32,306 nucleotides of DNA, taken from positions 1 through 32,306 of IMG/VR virus record IMGVR_UViG_2802429237_000004. One strand, 5' to 3'. Position numbers and translations under genes: made by a program. This DNA is from a virus. Its lineage: Duplodnaviria; Heunggongvirae; Uroviricota; Caudoviricetes. Below the pieces are notes generated by a model. It was given only the letters and a program-made list of their open reading frames with translations. It had not been told where the DNA came from and did not search any database. How positions within the stretch are numbered: the first letter of the stretch is position 1; each line of letters opens with the position of its first letter. This document shows, one piece after another, positions 22,638 to 32,306 of the stretch.

Positions 22638-22871
22638 TTAATGCAGCCAGCTGTCGTCTTCCCACACCTTCTGCATAATTTTCATCACTTGTTTTCTTTC
22701 TTCGTCCAGTTGCAGTCCGGTTAGTTCCACACCGTTAGAGCTACCTTTGCGAATGCGAATTACCGTTTTGGGATACAGGGGGCGCAGATTGCGGTAAAGC
22801 TCGGATTCAAGGGCGTCCAGGGTAGACTGGCTAATCTTCTGCTCTTTATCGATCATTATTTCAATGCGCAT
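22638..22871 (-). CDS. DinI-family protein (second gene of SOS operon)
   Basis: Start set at the internal MRIEIMIDKEQ, preceded by GAGGTG Shine-Dalgarno; 77 aa; N-terminus and C-terminal ...VWEDDSWLH resemble E. coli DinI and the C-terminal half of 186 Tum as I recall them. Confidence 0.6.
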   Translation of the reverse strand: MRIEIMIDKEQKISQSTLDALESELYRNLRPLYPKTVIRIRKGSSNGVELTGLQLDEERKQVMKIMQKVWEDDSWLH

Positions 22872-22881
22872 AAAAGTCACC

Positions 22882-23070
22882 TCAGCTGATGACATCCATT
22901 GAGCGGTTGTATTCGTGGGTTCTGATTTTTGCCATGAGTTCATCAGTCAATTCAGAAACCCACTGCAGAGCCAGCCCCTTCTCTTCATCACTACACTCAC
23001 TAGCCGCTACAAGCTTAAGAAAAAAATCAATGCGCTGGAGCTTCAAAGACTCCAAAAAATAGTCCTGCAT
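22882..23070 (-). CDS. Small SOS-operon protein (possibly the N-terminal part of a Tum-like antirepressor)
   Basis: Start set at the internal MQDYFLESL, which has a perfect AGGAGGAAAG Shine-Dalgarno directly upstream and lies 30-60 nt downstream of LexA boxes; the ORF-track start at 23172 would place the LexA boxes inside the coding sequence. Confidence 0.5.
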   Translation of the reverse strand: MQDYFLESLKLQRIDFFLKLVAASECSDEEKGLALQWVSELTDELMAKIRTHEYNRSMDVIS

Positions 23071-23098
23071 CTTTCCTCCTATGACACCACACGCAACA

Positions 23099-23129
23099 CT
23101 GTATGTATAACCACTGTTTATATTTACAG
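23099..23129. promoter_or_regulatory. Tandem LexA (SOS) boxes at the promoter of the tum/dinI-like operon
   Basis: Perfect CTG-N10-CAG with AT-rich core (ctgtttatatttacag, about 23114-23129) abutting an imperfect copy (ctgtatgtataaccac, about 23099-23114); LexA consensus is CTGTATATATATACAG. Confidence 0.6.
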
Positions 23130-23223
23130 CATATAATAATCTTACTGATGTAAAACGTTTTTTTACGTTCATCAGCCTGATATGCCTGGTATTATTAAGA
23201 GCACGAATTGTTAACCCGCGTAA

Positions 23224-28376: not shown

Positions 28377-28886
28377 TCACAGCAAACCGAATGAAGCACC
28401 GAGGCCAGTCACAGTATCAACTGCACTCGCCATCGCAGGGTTAGCCTGTAAACGGGCCTGCAATGAAACAGCCGCCAGCGCCATCAGTCGTGTTACAGAA
28501 TTAATGCTGCTGATGGCATCACGACGACCGGCACTGGTTTTTACATCGCCAGATACCGCACCTGCAGCAACACGCCCGATCTCTGCGGTTGCACTCATGA
28601 CGTAATGTGGCAGTTTCTCTTTTGCCACCTCATTAATCGGTACACATGGCAGACAATGAATCTGTGCCAGAAAACCATCTACCAGCGTTGAATCTTCAGT
28701 CAGATCGGTAAGCAGCCAGATTTCTGGTGCGGTTAATAAATGAGGTTGAGCTGGGTTCAGCTTGTTCCGCAGAATCTGCACATTCATGCCAGCACGTTCT
28801 GCCAGTTGCACCAGGTTGTGGCGCAATGCGAATGCACGACAGGCTTCATCAAAATGTGGATGTTTGGAAACTTGGTAATCAAACAT
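28377..28886 (-). CDS. cII: CII-like lysogeny establishment regulator (186 CII family)
   Basis: Start set at [24 protein letters not shown] (169 aa), which closely matches my recollection of coliphage 186 CII; second gene after apl. Confidence 0.8.
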
Positions 28887-28918
28887 GGTCGATACCCCTG
28901 ATGTATCCCAAAATGGAA

Positions 28919-29140
28919 CTAGTTGAATACAACATTGCAATCAGTAAGTGCATCAACGGTAAGAGCAGCAAGGTTGATCATCACCTTTTCTCTTTTCTTG
29001 TCTTTCCGAAGACGATGCCGAGGGATGCGACCGTCAGCCAGCATATCGTTAATTGTATCGATTGAAAGACCAGTAAGTTCGCTATAACGCTCAATTGTGA
29101 CATGTGGCGTATTCAGAGTTATTGAAATGTTAGGGGTCAT
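28919..29140 (-). CDS. apl: Apl/Cox-like excisionase and lytic-switch regulator
   Basis: 73-aa HTH protein, first gene of the lytic operon, divergent from the CI-like repressor gene as in 186. Confidence 0.7.
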
Positions 29141-29228: not shown

Positions 29229-30167
29229 ATGTCAACTCAAAAAAACACATTTCGCCATGTTAGCGAGAGTCTAAAAACTTCAATAATGCAAAACCGTGGG
29301 GGACAGAAAGTAATTGAGCGTATACTTGTTGCGTATGGTTTTACTTCGCGGCAAGCATTTTGCAATCATCTGGGTATCTCACAAAGCACGATGGCCAACA
29401 GGTATGCTCGTGACACATTTCCTGCTGACTGGGTGATAATTTGCAGTATAGAGACCGGCGCATCTATCGACTGGTTGGCATCGGGAATCAGCTGTGAATC
29501 ATCCTCAGTTTTATTAAATGATGAACGTTTAGCCCATACCAAATCTGATGACCTGGATAGAACTAATTCAATAGCCCAAAAGTTCCCAATCGAGACCAGC
29601 ATAAATCCTAATAAAGGAGGGAAGGCGGCAATTGATCGCTTAGTCGCAGCCTACGGCTTTAGCACCCGACAAGCCCTAGCAAACCATTTGCAGGTTTCAA
29701 AAAGCACTGTAGCAAACAGGTACTTACGAGACACGTTTCCTAGCGACTGGATCATTCAATGCGCTCTTGAAACAGGAACTTCATTACTCTGGCTCACAAA
29801 CGGCAATGGCCCCAAATTTATCGATAATTCCAGCTCTGTAGCCCAACTTAAACACCAAACAATCATTGACGGTAAATTACATGATGAAGGCTACTTAGCA
29901 TTTGACAAGACGCTTATACCTTCCGGATTGAAAAAACCTATTGGAGTTACCGCAGAAGGAAAAACCTTTATTGCAGATACAGAATATGATGATGTTTCAG
30001 ATGGTAGTTGGTTGATTGAGATTGAAGGTAAAGTAAGTTTAAGAAAATTAACAAGAATTCCAGTTGGAAAAGTAAAAATCACATCAGATACAACTGATTT
30101 TGTTTGTAAGCTTGAAGACATTACAACCATCGCAAAATGTTGTTGCGTTTTTTCAAAGGAAATTTAA
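29229..30167 (+). CDS. cI: CI-like immunity repressor with two tandem 186 CI-type N-terminal HTH domains
   Basis: 312-aa ORF; two consecutive segments (ERILVAYGFTSRQAFCNHLGISQSTMANRYARDTFPADWVIICSIETGASIDWLASG and DRLVAAYGFSTRQALANHLQVSKSTVANRYLRDTFPSDWIIQCALETGTSLLWLTNG) each resemble the 186 CI N-terminal DNA-binding domain; AT-rich C-terminal third; start codon choice uncertain (weak Shine-Dalgarno). Confidence 0.7.
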   Translation: MSTQKNTFRHVSESLKTSIMQNRGGQKVIERILVAYGFTSRQAFCNHLGISQSTMANRYARDTFPADWVIICSIETGASIDWLASGISCESSSVLLNDERLAHTKSDDLDRTNSIAQKFPIETSINPNKGGKAAIDRLVAAYGFSTRQALANHLQVSKSTVANRYLRDTFPSDWIIQCALETGTSLLWLTNGNGPKFIDNSSSVAQLKHQTIIDGKLHDEGYLAFDKTLIPSGLKKPIGVTAEGKTFIADTEYDDVSDGSWLIEIEGKVSLRKLTRIPVGKVKITSDTTDFVCKLEDITTIAKCCCVFSKEI

Positions 30168-30177
30168 AGGAACATAC

Positions 30178-31167
30178 ATGAATTCTGAAAATAAAAAAAA
30201 TGAAAACAACGATTATGTTGAAAAAGTTAATTGCGAATGGAAAGATCTTTATAATATTTTAAATGAAAATCTGCATAAATTTAATGAAAATGAACGCGCC
30301 TACTTAGTCGACTTATTAAAAAAAGGTGAACTTGATAAATTCAGAGAATACTACTGGAAATTAGCCCAGCAAGAAAAAATGAACTACAGCGATAAAGCTG
30401 GAGATATTTTTATTAATGAAAACAATAAGATAGATGAATTAATAAAAGAACAAAAACATCTTCGAGAGATAATGCGATCATATACCAAACGTTTATTGGA
30501 GGCTGAAGAGTCCAAAGCTACGTTACATCTTCGGAATGAGAATTTAGAAAAACTAAATTCTGAAAAAGAAGCAATTATTGAGCAAGCCGTATCTAGAATA
30601 AAGCAACTTGAAGCATCTAACAGCGAATTACAAAGCCGAGTACAACAAGAAAGGATTGATGAGAAAATACCAGGATATGTCGATAGCGTTAAAAGTGAAC
30701 TAAGTTCAGATGACTTATATTTCATTAAAATGTCGCAAGTATGGGCTTTTACTGGCTGCATTTTCGGGCTACTTGCTGTATGTGCATCATTTTATACACT
30801 CTACGCCACAATTGACTTCAACAATGTTAAAGGCTTTGAGCTATTTTATTTTTTCACACGTGGTTTAATTGGTATTTCCATTCTTTCTTGGCTAGCATAT
30901 ATTTGCCTTGGCAACTCTAAAAAATATACCCATGAATCAATTTTGAGAAAAGATAGAAGACATGCACTAATGTTTGGGCAAGTATTCCTGCAAATTTATG
31001 GTTCCACGTCAACAAAAGAAGATGCTGTGTTAGTCTTTAAAGACTGGAATATGTCTGGTAACTCTGCATTTTCTGACAAAACAGAACTCCCTCCGGGAAT
31101 CCAATCTTTATGGGATTCAACCAAAGAAAAACTAAAGCCAAGTACCGCTGAAAAAGCACAGGAGTGA
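30178..31167 (+). CDS. AT-rich cargo gene: coiled-coil protein with two C-terminal TM helices
   Basis: Start set at the ATG with AAGGA Shine-Dalgarno (MNSENKKNENN...); about 330 aa; a roughly 200-aa Glu/Lys/Leu/Asn-rich heptad region, then two hydrophobic helices (VWAFTGCIFGLLAVCASFYTLYATI, LFYFFTRGLIGISILSWLAYICLG) and a 65-aa tail; very AT-rich; followed by its own terminator. Confidence 0.6.
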   Translation: MNSENKKNENNDYVEKVNCEWKDLYNILNENLHKFNENERAYLVDLLKKGELDKFREYYWKLAQQEKMNYSDKAGDIFINENNKIDELIKEQKHLREIMRSYTKRLLEAEESKATLHLRNENLEKLNSEKEAIIEQAVSRIKQLEASNSELQSRVQQERIDEKIPGYVDSVKSELSSDDLYFIKMSQVWAFTGCIFGLLAVCASFYTLYATIDFNNVKGFELFYFFTRGLIGISILSWLAYICLGNSKKYTHESILRKDRRHALMFGQVFLQIYGSTSTKEDAVLVFKDWNMSGNSAFSDKTELPPGIQSLWDSTKEKLKPSTAEKAQE

Positions 31168-31229
31168 GGCCAATGTTTATTTCACCCTAAACATACATTG
31201 ATAACTGTTTAAATATACAGTTAAATTTA

Positions 31230-31253
31230 GCCCTCTGATATGAGGGCTTTTTT
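31230..31253 (+). terminator. Rho-independent terminator between the cargo gene and int
   Basis: gccctc-tgatat-gagggc stem followed by TTTTTT that runs straight into the int ATG. Confidence 0.6.
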
Positions 31254-32306
31254 ATGGCAGTACGAAAACTCACCACAGGAAAATGGCTTTGCGAATGTTA
31301 CCCTGCCGGACGTAGTGGACGTCGTGTGCGTAAACAATTCGCCACCAAAGGCGAAGCTCTGGCTTTTGAGCGTCACACGATGGAAGAAACCGAAGCAAAA
31401 CCCTGGCTGGGTGAATCAGTGGATCGTCGAACACTGAAAGACGTGGTTGAGATATGGTTCAAACTACATGGTAAATCTCTGACAGCTGGGCAGCATGTCT
31501 ATGACAAATTGCTGTTGATGGTTGACGCTCTGGGAAATCCCATTGCAACCGATCTCACCTCTAAAATGTTTGCCCACTATCGAGATAAACGCCTGACAGG
31601 AGAGATCTACTTCAGCGAAAAATGGAAGAAAGGAGCAAGCCCGGTCACCATTAACCTGGAACAAAGCTATCTTAGTAGTGTTTTTAGCGAACTATCCCGC
31701 CTGGGCGAATGGTCGTATCCGAACCCACTGGAGAACATGCGAAAATTCACCATCGCAGAAAAAGAGATGGCATGGCTTACCCATGAGCAGATTGTTGAAT
31801 TACTGGCTGATTGCAAACGTCAGGACCCAATTCTGGCACTGGTAGTTAAGATATGCTTAAGCACAGGCGCACGCTGGCGTGAAGCTGTAAATCTTACCCG
31901 CTCACAGGTGACCAAATACCGAATTACCTTTGTAAGAACGAAGGGGAAGAAAAACAGAAGCATCCCTATCAGTAAAGAACTTTACGAAGAGATCATGGCG
32001 CTTGATGGGTTCAATTTCTTCACAGACTGCTATTTTCAATTTTTATCTGTGATGGGAAAAACGTCTATCGTGCTCCCTCGCGGTCAACTGACACACGTTC
32101 TGCGCCATACGTTTGCGGCGCATTTCATGATGTCGGGTGGAAATATCCTTGCTTTGCAAAAAATCCTCGGACATCACGACATAAAAATGACTATGCGTTA
32201 CGCACATCTGGCACCGGATCATCTGGAAACGGCGCTCCGTTTCAATCCTCTGGCAACGCTGCCAAGTGGCGACAAAGTGGCGGCAGCGGTTGGCATTACC
32301 CCGTAA
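31254..32306 (+). CDS. int: Tyrosine integrase (P2/186 family)
   Basis: 350-aa ORF; N-terminus MAVRKLTTGKWLCECYPAGRSGRRVRKQFATKGEALAFE and C-terminal catalytic region (..HVLRHTFAAH...HHDIKMTMRYAHL) typical of P2-family integrases; stop codon is the last three bases of the window. Confidence 0.9.
   Translation: MAVRKLTTGKWLCECYPAGRSGRRVRKQFATKGEALAFERHTMEETEAKPWLGESVDRRTLKDVVEIWFKLHGKSLTAGQHVYDKLLLMVDALGNPIATDLTSKMFAHYRDKRLTGEIYFSEKWKKGASPVTINLEQSYLSSVFSELSRLGEWSYPNPLENMRKFTIAEKEMAWLTHEQIVELLADCKRQDPILALVVKICLSTGARWREAVNLTRSQVTKYRITFVRTKGKKNRSIPISKELYEEIMALDGFNFFTDCYFQFLSVMGKTSIVLPRGQLTHVLRHTFAAHFMMSGGNILALQKILGHHDIKMTMRYAHLAPDHLETALRFNPLATLPSGDKVAAAVGITP

What the first reader, a model, noticed from the sequence alone, without database searches (positions are those of the whole stretch)
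31230..31270. Integrase ribosome-binding site sequestered in the upstream terminator hairpin
The terminator of the cargo gene (gccctc-tgatat-gagggc-TTTTTT) ends exactly at the int ATG, and the only purine-rich candidate Shine-Dalgarno for int (GAGGG, 7-8 nt upstream) is the 3' arm of the hairpin. int translation would therefore depend on the hairpin being open, for example through read-through transcription or coupling, which suggests post-transcriptional control of integrase.
Basis: seen in the sequence. Interest (0 to 1): 0.4.

Follow-up and report, generated by a model that had tools for sequence, protein, structure and literature searches.

The report
Insulating hairpin in integrase promoter
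The hairpin that buries the integrase ribosome-binding site is real and conserved, but it sits inside a previously unnoticed integrase promoter (with phage-CII and host-LexA sites) and most likely silences only transcripts that read in from upstream genes, not the integrase's own mRNA.

Summary
GCCCTC(31230-35)/GAGGGC(31242-47) forms a -13.3 kcal/mol hairpin. It holds the only Shine-Dalgarno of int (GAGGG), and T6 then abuts the ATG at 31254.

The hairpin is not the cargo gene's terminator. It belongs to a ~85-nt module that travels with int in 186-like prophages across Enterobacterales, behind many different cargo genes. The module has five parts:
- an inverted repeat matching the phage 186 CII activator site
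- a TTGAYA -35
- a CTG-N10-CAG box, the best LexA-like 20-mer in the whole window
- a TAnnnT -10
- the hairpin

The stem sequence differs between lineages, but the two arms co-vary (0 of 100,000 random pairings do as well). Only 33 of 80 variants have a T-run, so SD occlusion is the conserved property, not termination.

Two independent rulers, the -10 and the CII half-site at -38, put the start site at about 31233-31235, inside the 5' arm. In that case the integrase's own transcripts lack the hairpin. Only read-through RNA from cI/cargo would be terminated and translationally blocked, as in IS10/IS50. The start site and LexA/CII binding are inferred, not measured.

This is a new variant of known kinds, of moderate interest.

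The parts
31173..31198 (+). Inverted repeat ATGTTTA(31173-79) ... CATACAT(31192-98). It is a putative binding site for the phage CII activator. The right half-site abuts and overlaps the -35.
   Evidence: The motif ATGTWT-N(4-24)-AWACAT occurs only twice in the window. The other copy is the pE homologue at 28860-28886. The phage 186 record annotates gATGTTTG-N13-CAAACATg as the CII site of pE. The half-sites keep a fixed position and spacing in 63 distinct relatives while the spacer varies. The literature places the CII half-sites at -38/-58 (PMC6593788). Spacing here is 1 bp shorter than at pE.
31198..31203 (+). -35 hexamer TTGATA of the int promoter (P_int)
   Evidence: Promoter scan hit TTGATA-18-TAAATT. 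TTGAC/TTGAT/TTTAC is conserved at this position in relatives.
31203..31222 (.). LexA-type SOS box AACTGTTTAAATATACAGTT, filling the spacer between -35 and -10
   Evidence: CTGT-N8-ACAG occurs twice in the window. The other copy is at the tum (p95-like) promoter. This is the top-scoring 20-mer of the whole window with a LexA matrix: 25.7 bits, against 22.3 for the tum box and 27.4 for the 186 p95 box. CTG...CAGT are the only invariant columns besides the ATG in 32 diverse relatives.
31221..31227 (+). -10 element, either TTAAAT (17-nt spacer) or TAAATT (18-nt spacer)
   Evidence: Relatives have TAnnnT directly after ACAG: TAAAAT, TAATTT, TACATT, TATTTT.
31233..31235 (+). Predicted transcription start of P_int (inferred, not mapped). 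It lies inside the 5' arm of the hairpin.
   Evidence: Counting 7-8 nt from the -10 gives 31233-31235. The right CII half-site centre (31195) plus 38 gives 31233. The same ruler reproduces the annotated end of pE in phage 186. In all 71 relatives with a hairpin, the 5' arm ends 12-17 nt after the LexA box.
31229..31248 (+). RNA hairpin: 5' arm AGCCCTC, loop TGATAT, 3' arm GAGGGCT
   Evidence: Folds at -13.3 kcal/mol, z = -5. The arms co-vary across lineages. The hairpin is specific to loci that carry the module.
31242..31246 (+). Shine-Dalgarno GAGGG of int, fully inside the 3' arm
   Evidence: The SD-like sequence is at least 75% paired in 60 of 68 relatives. Opening the ribosome-binding site costs 15.9 kcal/mol in read-through RNA, against 8.2-6.1 in RNA starting at 31233-31235.
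31248..31253 (+). T6 tract, the terminator tail for read-through transcripts
   Evidence: It is present in only 33 of 80 distinct relatives.
31254..32306 (+). int, a tyrosine integrase of the P2/186 family (350 aa)
   Evidence: Pfam Int_N 2e-32 and Phage_integrase 1.3e-21. Annotated as phage integrase in RefSeq.
30178..31167 (+). Cargo ORF upstream (329 aa by the RefSeq start; function unknown). It is the last gene of the read-through source.
   Evidence: There is no PADLOC hit, and the only Pfam hit is far below its cut-off. This slot holds different genes in relatives.
29229..30167 (+). cI repressor gene (186 type). Its promoters pL and pE are the likely source of transcripts reading toward int.
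   Evidence: Pfam Phage_CI_repr x2 and Phage_CI_C. Gene order matches phage 186.
28860..28886 (+). CII site of the pE homologue (ATGTTTG-N13-CAAACAT), the reference copy within the same phage
   Evidence: The half-sites are identical to the annotated 186 site.
23112..23131 (-). LexA box at the tum (antirepressor) promoter, the reference SOS box within the same phage
   Evidence: The 186 record annotates a LexA site at p95.

Best explanation
The hairpin is the downstream end of a compact, portable control cassette for int. The cassette is found in 186-like prophages whose int has been separated from cI by cargo genes.

The cassette contains a sigma-70 promoter, P_int. A CII-type activator site sits at -38/-58 and a LexA box lies between -35 and -10. 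The -10/discriminator region of this promoter also serves as the 5' arm of the hairpin. The 3' arm is the int Shine-Dalgarno.

Transcripts that arrive from upstream (the pL/pE transcripts through cI and cargo) contain both arms. They fold the hairpin and, in this lineage, are largely terminated at the T6 tract. Any that escape have the ribosome-binding site locked, at about 16 kcal/mol to open.

Transcripts that start at P_int begin inside the 5' arm, at about 31233-31235. They cannot form the hairpin and carry a ~20-nt leader with a free SD.

int is therefore uncoupled from constitutive cI transcription. It responds instead to CII (establishment of lysogeny, like lambda pI) and to LexA cleavage (SOS induction, in parallel with tum).

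Shown here: the hairpin, its conservation and arm co-variation, the motifs and their fixed geometry, and the association with cargo insertion. Inferred: the start site, termination efficiency, CII and LexA binding, and the physiological logic.
For: - Hairpin stability: -13.3 kcal/mol, z = -5.
- Specificity to the module: 38/45 distinct module-bearing loci have a hairpin of -8 kcal/mol or better, against 0/28 int homologues without the module.
- Arm co-variation across 15 lineage representatives: cognate halves average -12.3 kcal/mol and swapped halves -6.0. None of 100,000 random pairings reaches the observed sum. G.U wobbles (TGCTCTC/GAGGGCA) and a double change (GTCCTC/GAGGAC) point to RNA-level pairing.
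- Termination is not the conserved property: 33/80 variants have a T-run, whereas the SD is paired in 60/68.
- Promoter: consensus scan hit. TTGAC, CTG-N10-CAGT and TAnnnT are conserved, and CTG/CAGT are the only invariant columns.
- LexA matrix: 31203-31222 is the best 20-mer in the 32.3 kb window, scoring above the phage's own tum box. All 64 distinct P_int boxes score within the range of E. coli sites.
- CII site: the motif occurs only at pE and P_int in the window. It matches the annotated 186 site and the geometry given in the literature.
- Start-site geometry: the -10 ruler and the CII ruler agree on 31233-31235. In 71/71 relatives with a hairpin, the 5' arm ends 12-17 nt after the box, and it is never wholly downstream of the predicted start.
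- RBS opening cost: median 14.4 kcal/mol in read-through RNA, against 5.2 or 3.8 in RNA started at P_int.
- Context: the module is present only where cI and int are at least ~400 nt apart. It is absent where the cI stop abuts the int ATG, as in phage 186.
- All 80 IMG/VR hits to the CII-site-plus-LexA-box pattern have this int family 30-36 nt downstream.
Against: - No start site has been mapped. If initiation is 2-3 nt upstream of the prediction, 4-5 GC pairs survive and the opening cost is still 11.4 kcal/mol in this window.
- Even at the predicted start site, the window's leader keeps a residual cost of 6-8 kcal/mol through weak pairing with the early coding region.
- About 10% of module-bearing relatives have no convincing hairpin (9 of 80).
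- Half-site spacing is 1 bp shorter than at pE, and CII tolerance for that difference is unknown.
- A LexA box in the spacer of a CII-activated promoter raises an unresolved question. It is unclear how Int would be made during lysogenisation of undamaged cells in which LexA is intact.
- Within the window's own clade the stem barely varies, so covariation there is not significant (48/500 shuffles). The lineage representatives in the arm-swap test are not phylogenetically independent.
Confidence: 0.55

Rival explanations
1. The hairpin is a general translational throttle. It, or a truncated version, is present in all int mRNAs, including those from P_int. It keeps Int synthesis low at all times, or until some factor (temperature, a protein or an sRNA) opens it. 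This is essentially the first reader's sequestration idea without the read-through clause.
For: The SD is inside the stem in 60/68 relatives. If transcription starts at 31231, the opening cost is still 11.4 kcal/mol. The predicted start positions are pyrimidines, so the true start site is uncertain.
Against: In all 71 relatives with a hairpin, the 5' arm begins 1-11 nt after the LexA box, within or directly after the -10. A sigma-70 promoter cannot start that close to its -10, so the complete stem cannot be in P_int RNA. A 5'-UTR regulatory hairpin has no reason to overlap the -10/discriminator in every lineage. No Rfam family or known riboswitch or thermometer matches.
Confidence: 0.2
2. The hairpin is an ordinary intrinsic terminator that ends the cI-cargo operon, and its overlap with the int SD is a by-product of a tight intergenic space. 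Under this reading the sequestration has no regulatory role.
For: The anatomy is canonical: a GC-rich 7-bp stem followed by T6. In the commonest E. coli variant an A-tract pairs with the T-tract, as in bidirectional terminators.
Against: Only 33/80 variants keep a T-run, while the stem that includes the SD is kept in 71/80. Yersinia, Serratia, Rahnella and Pantoea variants have SD hairpins without a U-tract. Some of these have a separate terminator just upstream of the module. The arms co-vary around different SD sequences.
Confidence: 0.12
3. int has no promoter of its own, and it is expressed only from read-through or translationally coupled cargo transcripts that somehow open the hairpin.
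For: [quoted passage not shown] In 186, the cI stop overlaps the int start.
Against: The cargo stop codon is 86 nt from the ATG, so coupling is not possible. A conserved promoter with activator and repressor sites fills that gap. Read-through RNA is exactly the species in which the hairpin is most stable.
Confidence: 0.05
4. The palindromic elements are DNA-level protein sites unrelated to LexA or CII, for example sites for Int, Apl or CI. Under this reading the stem-loop is a DNA operator rather than an RNA structure.
For: All three elements are inverted repeats. No binding data exist.
Against: Stem sequences differ completely between lineages, yet pairing is kept, including through G.U wobbles that would be mismatches in DNA. 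A protein operator would conserve sequence rather than complementarity. The other two repeats match the 186 CII site and the LexA consensus closely, and each recurs at its expected second location in the same phage.
Confidence: 0.05

Closest known systems
Protection of IS10/IS50 transposase from outside transcription ('fold-back inhibition'; Davis, Simons & Kleckner 1985; Krebs & Reznikoff 1986; cited from my own knowledge, since no open paper in the library describes it)
   Same: The element's own promoter starts inside an inverted repeat. Only transcripts entering from outside contain both arms, and these bury the ribosome-binding site of the recombinase gene.
   Different: Here the gene is a phage tyrosine integrase, not a transposase. 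The 5' arm coincides with the -10/discriminator region. In this lineage a U-tract adds termination. There is no sequence relationship, and the start site here is inferred rather than mapped.
Lambda pI, the CII-activated int promoter (described in PMC2951348 and PMC7708051)
   Same: It is a dedicated promoter just upstream of int, with a binding site for the phage's lysogeny-establishment activator. This allows Int synthesis independent of the main operon.
   Different: 186 CII is unrelated to lambda CII, and its site is an inverted repeat two helical turns apart. Lambda uses sib retroregulation downstream of int, not an upstream hairpin, and pI has no LexA box.
Phage 186 pE (CII-activated) and p95 (LexA-repressed tum promoter)
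   Same: P_int carries the same half-site motif and the same -38/-58 geometry as pE. Its box is nearly the same as the p95 LexA box (TACTGTATGTTTATACAGTA), and both reference sites are present in this window.
   Different: In 186 the two controls act on different promoters and neither drives int. There, int overlaps cI by 1 nt and is made from the lysogenic transcript. The half-site spacing at P_int is 1 bp shorter than at pE.
LexA-repressed integron integrase promoters (Guerin et al. 2009; from my own knowledge)
   Same: A LexA box overlaps the core promoter of a tyrosine recombinase gene, so the recombinase is made under SOS.
   Different: These are a different recombinase family in a different kind of element. 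They have no activator site and no SD hairpin.
Rho-independent terminators
   Same: A GC-rich stem followed by T6, which the terminator scan detects.
   Different: The stem contains the next gene's SD and overlaps that gene's promoter. The U-tract is dispensable across the family.

Membership tests
Intrinsic (Rho-independent) terminator | Stable GC-rich stem-loop in the RNA | tested here: met
   7 pairs, 5 of them GC; -13.3 kcal/mol; z = -5.
Intrinsic (Rho-independent) terminator | U-tract of about 5 or more directly after the stem | tested here: met
   T6 at 31248-31253. Across the family only 33/80 variants have it.
Intrinsic (Rho-independent) terminator | Transcripts actually end there | not testable with these tools
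   This needs 3' end mapping or in vitro transcription.
RBS-sequestering hairpin acting only on read-through transcripts (IS10/IS50-type) | Shine-Dalgarno and/or start codon paired in the stem | tested here: met
   GAGGG is the 3' arm. The SD is paired in 60/68 relatives.
RBS-sequestering hairpin acting only on read-through transcripts (IS10/IS50-type) | The gene's own transcription start lies inside or beyond the 5' arm | tested here: inconclusive
   The -10 ruler and the CII-site ruler both give 31233-31235, inside the arm at 31229-31235. No start site has been mapped.
RBS-sequestering hairpin acting only on read-through transcripts (IS10/IS50-type) | Pairing is under selection (compensatory change) | tested here: met
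   Arm-swap test: 0 of 100,000 random pairings reach the observed sum. Within-clade counts alone are not significant.
RBS-sequestering hairpin acting only on read-through transcripts (IS10/IS50-type) | Read-through transcripts are translated much less than own-promoter transcripts | not testable with these tools
   Only a thermodynamic proxy is available: 15.9 kcal/mol against 8.2-6.1 in the window, and a median of 14.4 against 5.2-3.8 in relatives.
186 CII-activated promoter (pE type) | Inverted-repeat half-sites ATGTTTG / CAAACAT | tested here: met
   The window has ATGTTTA ... CATACAT, with family consensus ATGTWT ... AWACAT. The annotated 186 site was read.
186 CII-activated promoter (pE type) | Half-sites 20 bp apart centre to centre, at -38 and -58 | tested here: inconclusive
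   The right half-site abuts the -35, which is consistent with -38. Spacing is 19 bp with 7-mers, 1 bp shorter than pE, and this is constant across 63 relatives.
186 CII-activated promoter (pE type) | A cII gene in the same element | tested here: met
   Pfam Phage_CP76 at 4.5e-42 for 28377-28940(-).
186 CII-activated promoter (pE type) | CII binding and activation | not testable with these tools
   This needs EMSA or footprinting, and reporter assays with CII supplied.
LexA-repressed (SOS) promoter | CTG-N10-CAG palindrome with an AT-rich centre close to TACTG(TA)5CAGTA | tested here: met
   AACTGTTTAAATATACAGTT matches 16 of 20 consensus positions. It is the best 20-mer in the window at 25.7 bits, against a leave-one-out median of 19.2 for E. 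coli sites. The matrix was built from remembered sequences.
LexA-repressed (SOS) promoter | Box overlaps the core promoter | tested here: met
   The box at 31203-31222 fills the spacer between the -35 (31198-203) and the -10 (31221-27).
LexA-repressed (SOS) promoter | LexA binding and SOS inducibility | not testable with these tools
   This needs footprinting or ChIP, and expression after mitomycin C treatment or in lexA mutants.
Any curated RNA family (Rfam 15) | Match at or above the gathering score | tested here: not met
   The best hits (RyhB 26.4 against a cut-off of 55; Trp_leader 22.6 against 41) are terminator-shape look-alikes far below their cut-offs.

The most novel reading that the evidence does not exclude
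A portable, three-input expression cassette for integrase in 186-like prophages. It would combine activation by phage CII, repression by host LexA, and insulation from upstream transcription by a hairpin whose 5' arm is the promoter's own -10/discriminator. Such a cassette would replace the cI-int coupling of phage 186. It would also be what allows a cargo or defence-gene hotspot to exist between cI and int across Enterobacterales.
Probability: 0.4. Interest if true: 0.6.

Novelty: new variant of a known kind. Interest (0 to 1): 0.5.

Why it matters
The textbook picture for P2/186 phages is that int rides on the lysogenic (cI) transcript.

This window, and several hundred related prophages in Escherichia, Klebsiella, Enterobacter, Citrobacter, Yersinia, Serratia, Rahnella, Pantoea and others, appear to use a different design. 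They carry a self-contained int cassette that senses establishment of lysogeny (CII) and DNA damage (LexA), and it ignores transcription arriving from upstream.

If this is confirmed, it would explain three things:
- How Int is supplied at induction, when the lysogenic promoter is being shut down.
- How unrelated cargo genes can be inserted and expressed between cI and int without deregulating recombination.
- How a promoter can overlap a terminator/anti-SD hairpin, which could be a compact design for synthetic insulation.

It is also a caution for annotation: a 'terminator' that abuts a start codon can be part of the downstream gene's control region.

Tried and rejected
1. MAFFT alignment of 32 diverse leaders (A1). 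The stems of different lineages fall out of register by 1-2 columns, so it could not be used for pair counting.
2. Covariance model from the window clade (R1). It recovered the close clades strongly but the distant ones only at E of 0.1-5, it missed the Rahnella type, and it pulled in spurious hits. I did not use alignment A3 for pair counts.
3. The count of structure pairs on the window clade alone (A2). Pairing is 96%, but there is only one double change and two G.U changes, and 48/500 shuffles do as well. That test is not significant on its own. I replaced it with an arm-swap test across lineages.
4. Mean pairing probability of the SD in P_int RNA. It is uninformative because weak alternative pairings inflate it. 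I replaced it with opening energies.
5. Rfam search at a permissive threshold. It returned only terminator-shaped sub-threshold hits.
6. Alternative start codons for int. There are none upstream (in-frame TGA at 31236). The next in-frame ATG is codon 43, which would delete the conserved N-terminus.
7. The small overlapping ORF at 31240-31437, which starts in the loop. Its ATG is not conserved in the other clades, so I rejected it.
8. A minus-strand promoter in the gap. The scan found none.
9. Literature searches for a LexA- or CII-controlled int promoter, or an SD hairpin, in P2/186-like phages. Nothing was found. The key 186 CII papers (JBC 2000 and 2014) and the P2 review are not held, so prior description cannot be excluded.
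10. PADLOC and Pfam searches on the cargo protein. There were no informative hits.
Full report
**1. The observation**

The window reads A31229-GCCCTC(31230-35)-TGATAT-GAGGGC(31242-47)-T31248, then T6 at 31248-53, then ATG at 31254. As RNA, the 32-nt core folds at -13.3 kcal/mol, takes 82% of the ensemble, and has z = -5.0. None of 200 dinucleotide shuffles folds as well. The hairpin is kept in every longer context folded, and the consensus scan lists it as terminator-like.

GAGGG is the only purine-rich stretch near the ATG. It lies 7 nt upstream and forms the 3' arm.

The start codon is secure for four reasons:
- An in-frame TGA lies six codons upstream, with no start codon between.
- Homologues align from residue 1.
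- Phage 186 Int begins MTVRKNPAGGW, against MAVRKLTTGKW here.
- RefSeq uses the same start.

**2. Context**

The window is a 186-type member of the P2 family. It encodes a CII-family regulator at 28377-28940(-) and a small apl-position ORF that RefSeq calls 'regulator' at 28919-29140(-). It also encodes a 186-type CI at 29229-30167(+), an unknown 329-aa cargo ORF ending at 31167, and int at 31254-32306, which ends the window. In phage 186 itself, cI and int overlap by one base and int is made from the lysogenic transcript (PMC2951348).

**3. The hairpin belongs to int, not to the cargo gene**

Megablast to sequenced phages picks up homology right after the cargo stop (window 31171) or at the 3' arm (31242), and it then continues through int.

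I fetched 157 related int loci and read the 100 nt upstream of each. A conserved block starts about 85 nt before the ATG, and the sequence upstream of it is unrelated from locus to locus.

The block is present only where cI and int are separated by about 0.4-2.8 kb of variable DNA, or where cI lies beyond the 3-kb flank. It is absent in all loci where the cI stop abuts the int ATG, as in 186. Some Pantoea-type relatives have a separate, classical terminator (GCCCGC..GCGGGCTTTTT) immediately upstream of the block and still keep the SD hairpin.

**4. Anatomy of the block**

I anchored 63 distinct sequences on one motif. From 5' to 3' the block contains:
- (a) ATGTWT-N14-AWACAT, at fixed position and spacing with a variable spacer.
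- (b) TTGAC/TTGAT/TTTAC, overlapping the last T of the repeat.
- (c) CTG-N10-CAGT with an AT-rich centre.
- (d) TAnnnT directly after it.
- (e) The hairpin.
- (f) The ATG, 29-36 nt after CAG.

In a 32-sequence alignment that reaches int identities of about 55%, the only invariant columns are CTG, CAGT and ATG. The promoter scan independently reports TTGATA-18-TAAATT at 31198-31227.

**5. Element (a) looks like a CII site**

The pattern occurs twice in the window. One copy is here. The other is at 28860-28886 inside the 5' end of cII, facing cI, which is exactly where 186 has pE. The 186 record annotates gATGTTTG-N13-CAAACATg as the CII site of pE, and the window's pE copy has identical half-sites.

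The literature states that CII binds an inverted repeat two helical turns apart, centred at -38 and -58 of pE (PMC6593788). In 186, the right half-site centre plus 38 lands on the annotated end of the pE promoter feature. At P_int the spacing is 1 bp shorter than at pE, and this holds in all relatives. That difference is a caveat.

**6. Element (c) looks like a LexA box**

CTGT-N8-ACAG occurs twice in the window, against 0.35 expected by chance. One copy is here and the other is at the tum promoter. In 186 that promoter is the LexA-repressed p95.

I built a LexA matrix from 24 E. coli operators. With it, 31203-31222 is the best 20-mer of the whole 32.3-kb window at 25.7 bits. For comparison, the tum box scores 22.3, the 186 p95 box 27.4, and the leave-one-out median for real sites is 19.2. 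All 64 distinct P_int boxes score 14.8 or more, above the weakest training site. The box fills the spacer between -35 and -10, so a bound LexA would occlude the promoter.

**7. The module is specific to int**

I scanned IMG/VR for CII-site + -35 + LexA-box (22 specified bases). Every one has an int of this family (M[ASTV][VI]RK..G.W.C) starting 30-36 nt downstream. The scan also added new stem variants.

**8. The pairing is selected**

- Loci with the module: 38/45 distinct sequences have a hairpin of -8 kcal/mol or better in the last 32 nt (median -13.3, median z -4.7).
- int homologues without the module: 0/28 (median z +0.2).

Stem sequences differ between lineages: GCCCTC/GAGGGC, GTCCTC/GAGGAC, TGCTCTC/GAGGGCA (with G.U), CTCTCCTAA/TTAGGAGAG, CCCCCTT/AAGGGGG, CACATTCTC/GAGAATGTG, CCTCCATT/AATGGAGG, ACAGTCCTC/GGGGGCTGT, TCACCTG/CAGGTGA.

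In an arm-swap test on 15 lineage representatives, cognate halves average -12.3 kcal/mol and swapped halves -6.0. None of 100,000 random one-to-one pairings reaches the observed total, which is about 7 sd away. Within the window's own clade variation is too low to be significant.

Over 80 distinct leaders from 235 loci:
- 71 have a hairpin of -7 kcal/mol or better.
- The SD-like sequence is at least 75% paired in 60 of 68.
- Only 33 have a T-run.

The conserved property is therefore occlusion of the SD. Termination is an addition in the Escherichia/Klebsiella/Enterobacter-type clades, which include this window.

**9. Where transcription starts**

This is inferred. The -10 (TTAAAT at 31221-26 or TAAATT at 31222-27) puts +1 at 31233-31235. 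The CII ruler (right half-site centre 31195 = -38) gives 31233. Both fall inside the 5' arm (31229-35).

Across relatives the 5' arm always ends 12-17 nt after CAG, and it is never wholly downstream of a start at CAG+12 to +16. A complete stem would require initiation 1-4 nt after the -10, which sigma-70 geometry does not allow.

The cost of opening positions -13 to +3 is 15.9 kcal/mol in read-through RNA. It falls to 8.2 with a start at 31233 and 6.1 with a start at 31235. In relatives the medians are 14.4, 5.2 and 3.8.

**10. Mechanism proposed**

Transcripts from pL/pE that run through cI and cargo contain both arms. They fold the hairpin, mostly stop at T6, and if they escape cannot load ribosomes on int. 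Transcripts from P_int start within the 5' arm and carry an open SD on a ~20-nt leader.

int is thereby disconnected from constitutive cI transcription. It is placed under CII (establishment, analogous to lambda pI) and LexA (SOS, in step with tum).

This is the logic known for IS10/IS50 transposase protection from outside transcription (my own knowledge), applied to a phage integrase and fused with a terminator.

Two of its readings do not: the assignment of the hairpin to the cargo gene, and the idea that read-through opens the hairpin. Its causal arrow is reversed.

**11. Weak points**

- No start site, 3' end, or LexA/CII binding has been measured.
- A start 2-3 nt upstream of the prediction would leave a partial stem (11.4 kcal/mol).
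- The window's P_int leader keeps some residual structure.
- Nine of 80 relatives lack a convincing hairpin.
- The CII half-site spacing differs by 1 bp from pE.
- It is unclear how CII activation and LexA occupancy combine during lysogenisation of undamaged cells.
- The lineage representatives in the arm-swap test are related to one another.
- The LexA matrix is from memory.
- The literature check was limited to open-access holdings. The central 186 CII papers and the P2 review could not be read, so prior description cannot be ruled out. Searches found none.

**12. Verdict**

This is a real, conserved RNA hairpin that occludes the int SD. It is best read as a read-through insulator embedded in a previously unannotated CII/LexA-type int promoter. 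Each component is of a known kind, but the combination and its link to a cargo hotspot appear undescribed. I rate it a new variant of a known kind, with interest 0.5.

Noticed in passing
window 29229-30167 (+): The CI repressor is 312 aa and carries two tandem Phage_CI_repr helix-turn-helix domains plus one Phage_CI_C domain. Phage 186 CI is encoded by only 579 nt. A duplicated DNA-binding domain in a 186-type repressor is unusual.
   Followed up: no
window 30178-31167 (+); the same slot in L001-L157: The space between cI and int is a variable cargo slot. It is 0.4 to over 2.7 kb long in relatives and holds mostly unrelated genes. The window's occupant is a 329-aa protein with a coiled-coil-like N-terminal half and a hydrophobic C-terminal half. 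It has no PADLOC hit and only a sub-threshold Pfam hit. It is a possible defence or exclusion gene.
   Followed up: partly
window 23097-23131 (- strand promoter upstream of the tum-like ORFs at 22638-23172): Two adjacent or overlapping LexA-like boxes score 22.3 and 15.0 bits. The second shares GGTTATACATACAGT with the int-promoter box of the commonest E. coli variant of the module. This suggests that operator sequence has been exchanged between the two SOS-controlled promoters.
   Followed up: partly
window 28860-28886 (+): This is the pE homologue. ATGTTTG-N13-CAAACAT lies inside the 5' end of cII and faces cI. It is followed by a plausible weak -35 (TGGTCG) and a -10 (CAAAAT).
   Followed up: partly
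L029, L032, L038, L043 (about 60-100 nt upstream of int): In Pantoea, Winslowiella and Mixta relatives, a classical terminator (for example GCCCGCTCAGCGGGCTTTTT) ends exactly at the left CII half-site. Termination and SD occlusion are therefore handled by two separate hairpins there.
   Followed up: no
L186, L211, L014: These are decayed copies of the module. L186 has lost the ATG (TTTTTTTGGCAGTACG). In L211 the 3' arm and int are replaced by unrelated sequence that carries a strong hairpin. L014 has lost the LexA box and shortened the stem.
   Followed up: no
window 31240-31437 (+): A 65-aa ORF starts at an ATG formed by the hairpin loop plus the first G of the 3' arm. That ATG is absent in the other clades, so the ORF is probably not a gene.
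   Followed up: partly
L001 (JAEWTL010000113.1) and L066 (QAKE01000041.1): Contigs labelled 'MAG: Bacillota bacterium' carry enterobacterial 186-type int loci, one of them 99% identical to the window. This is most likely mis-binning or contamination of those MAGs.
   Followed up: no
window end 32306; L159 6208-6848: The window stops at the int stop codon. In E. coli SW071614 the next gene, about 100 nt on, is rcdA. The attachment site therefore lies just outside the window, between int and rcdA.
   Followed up: no
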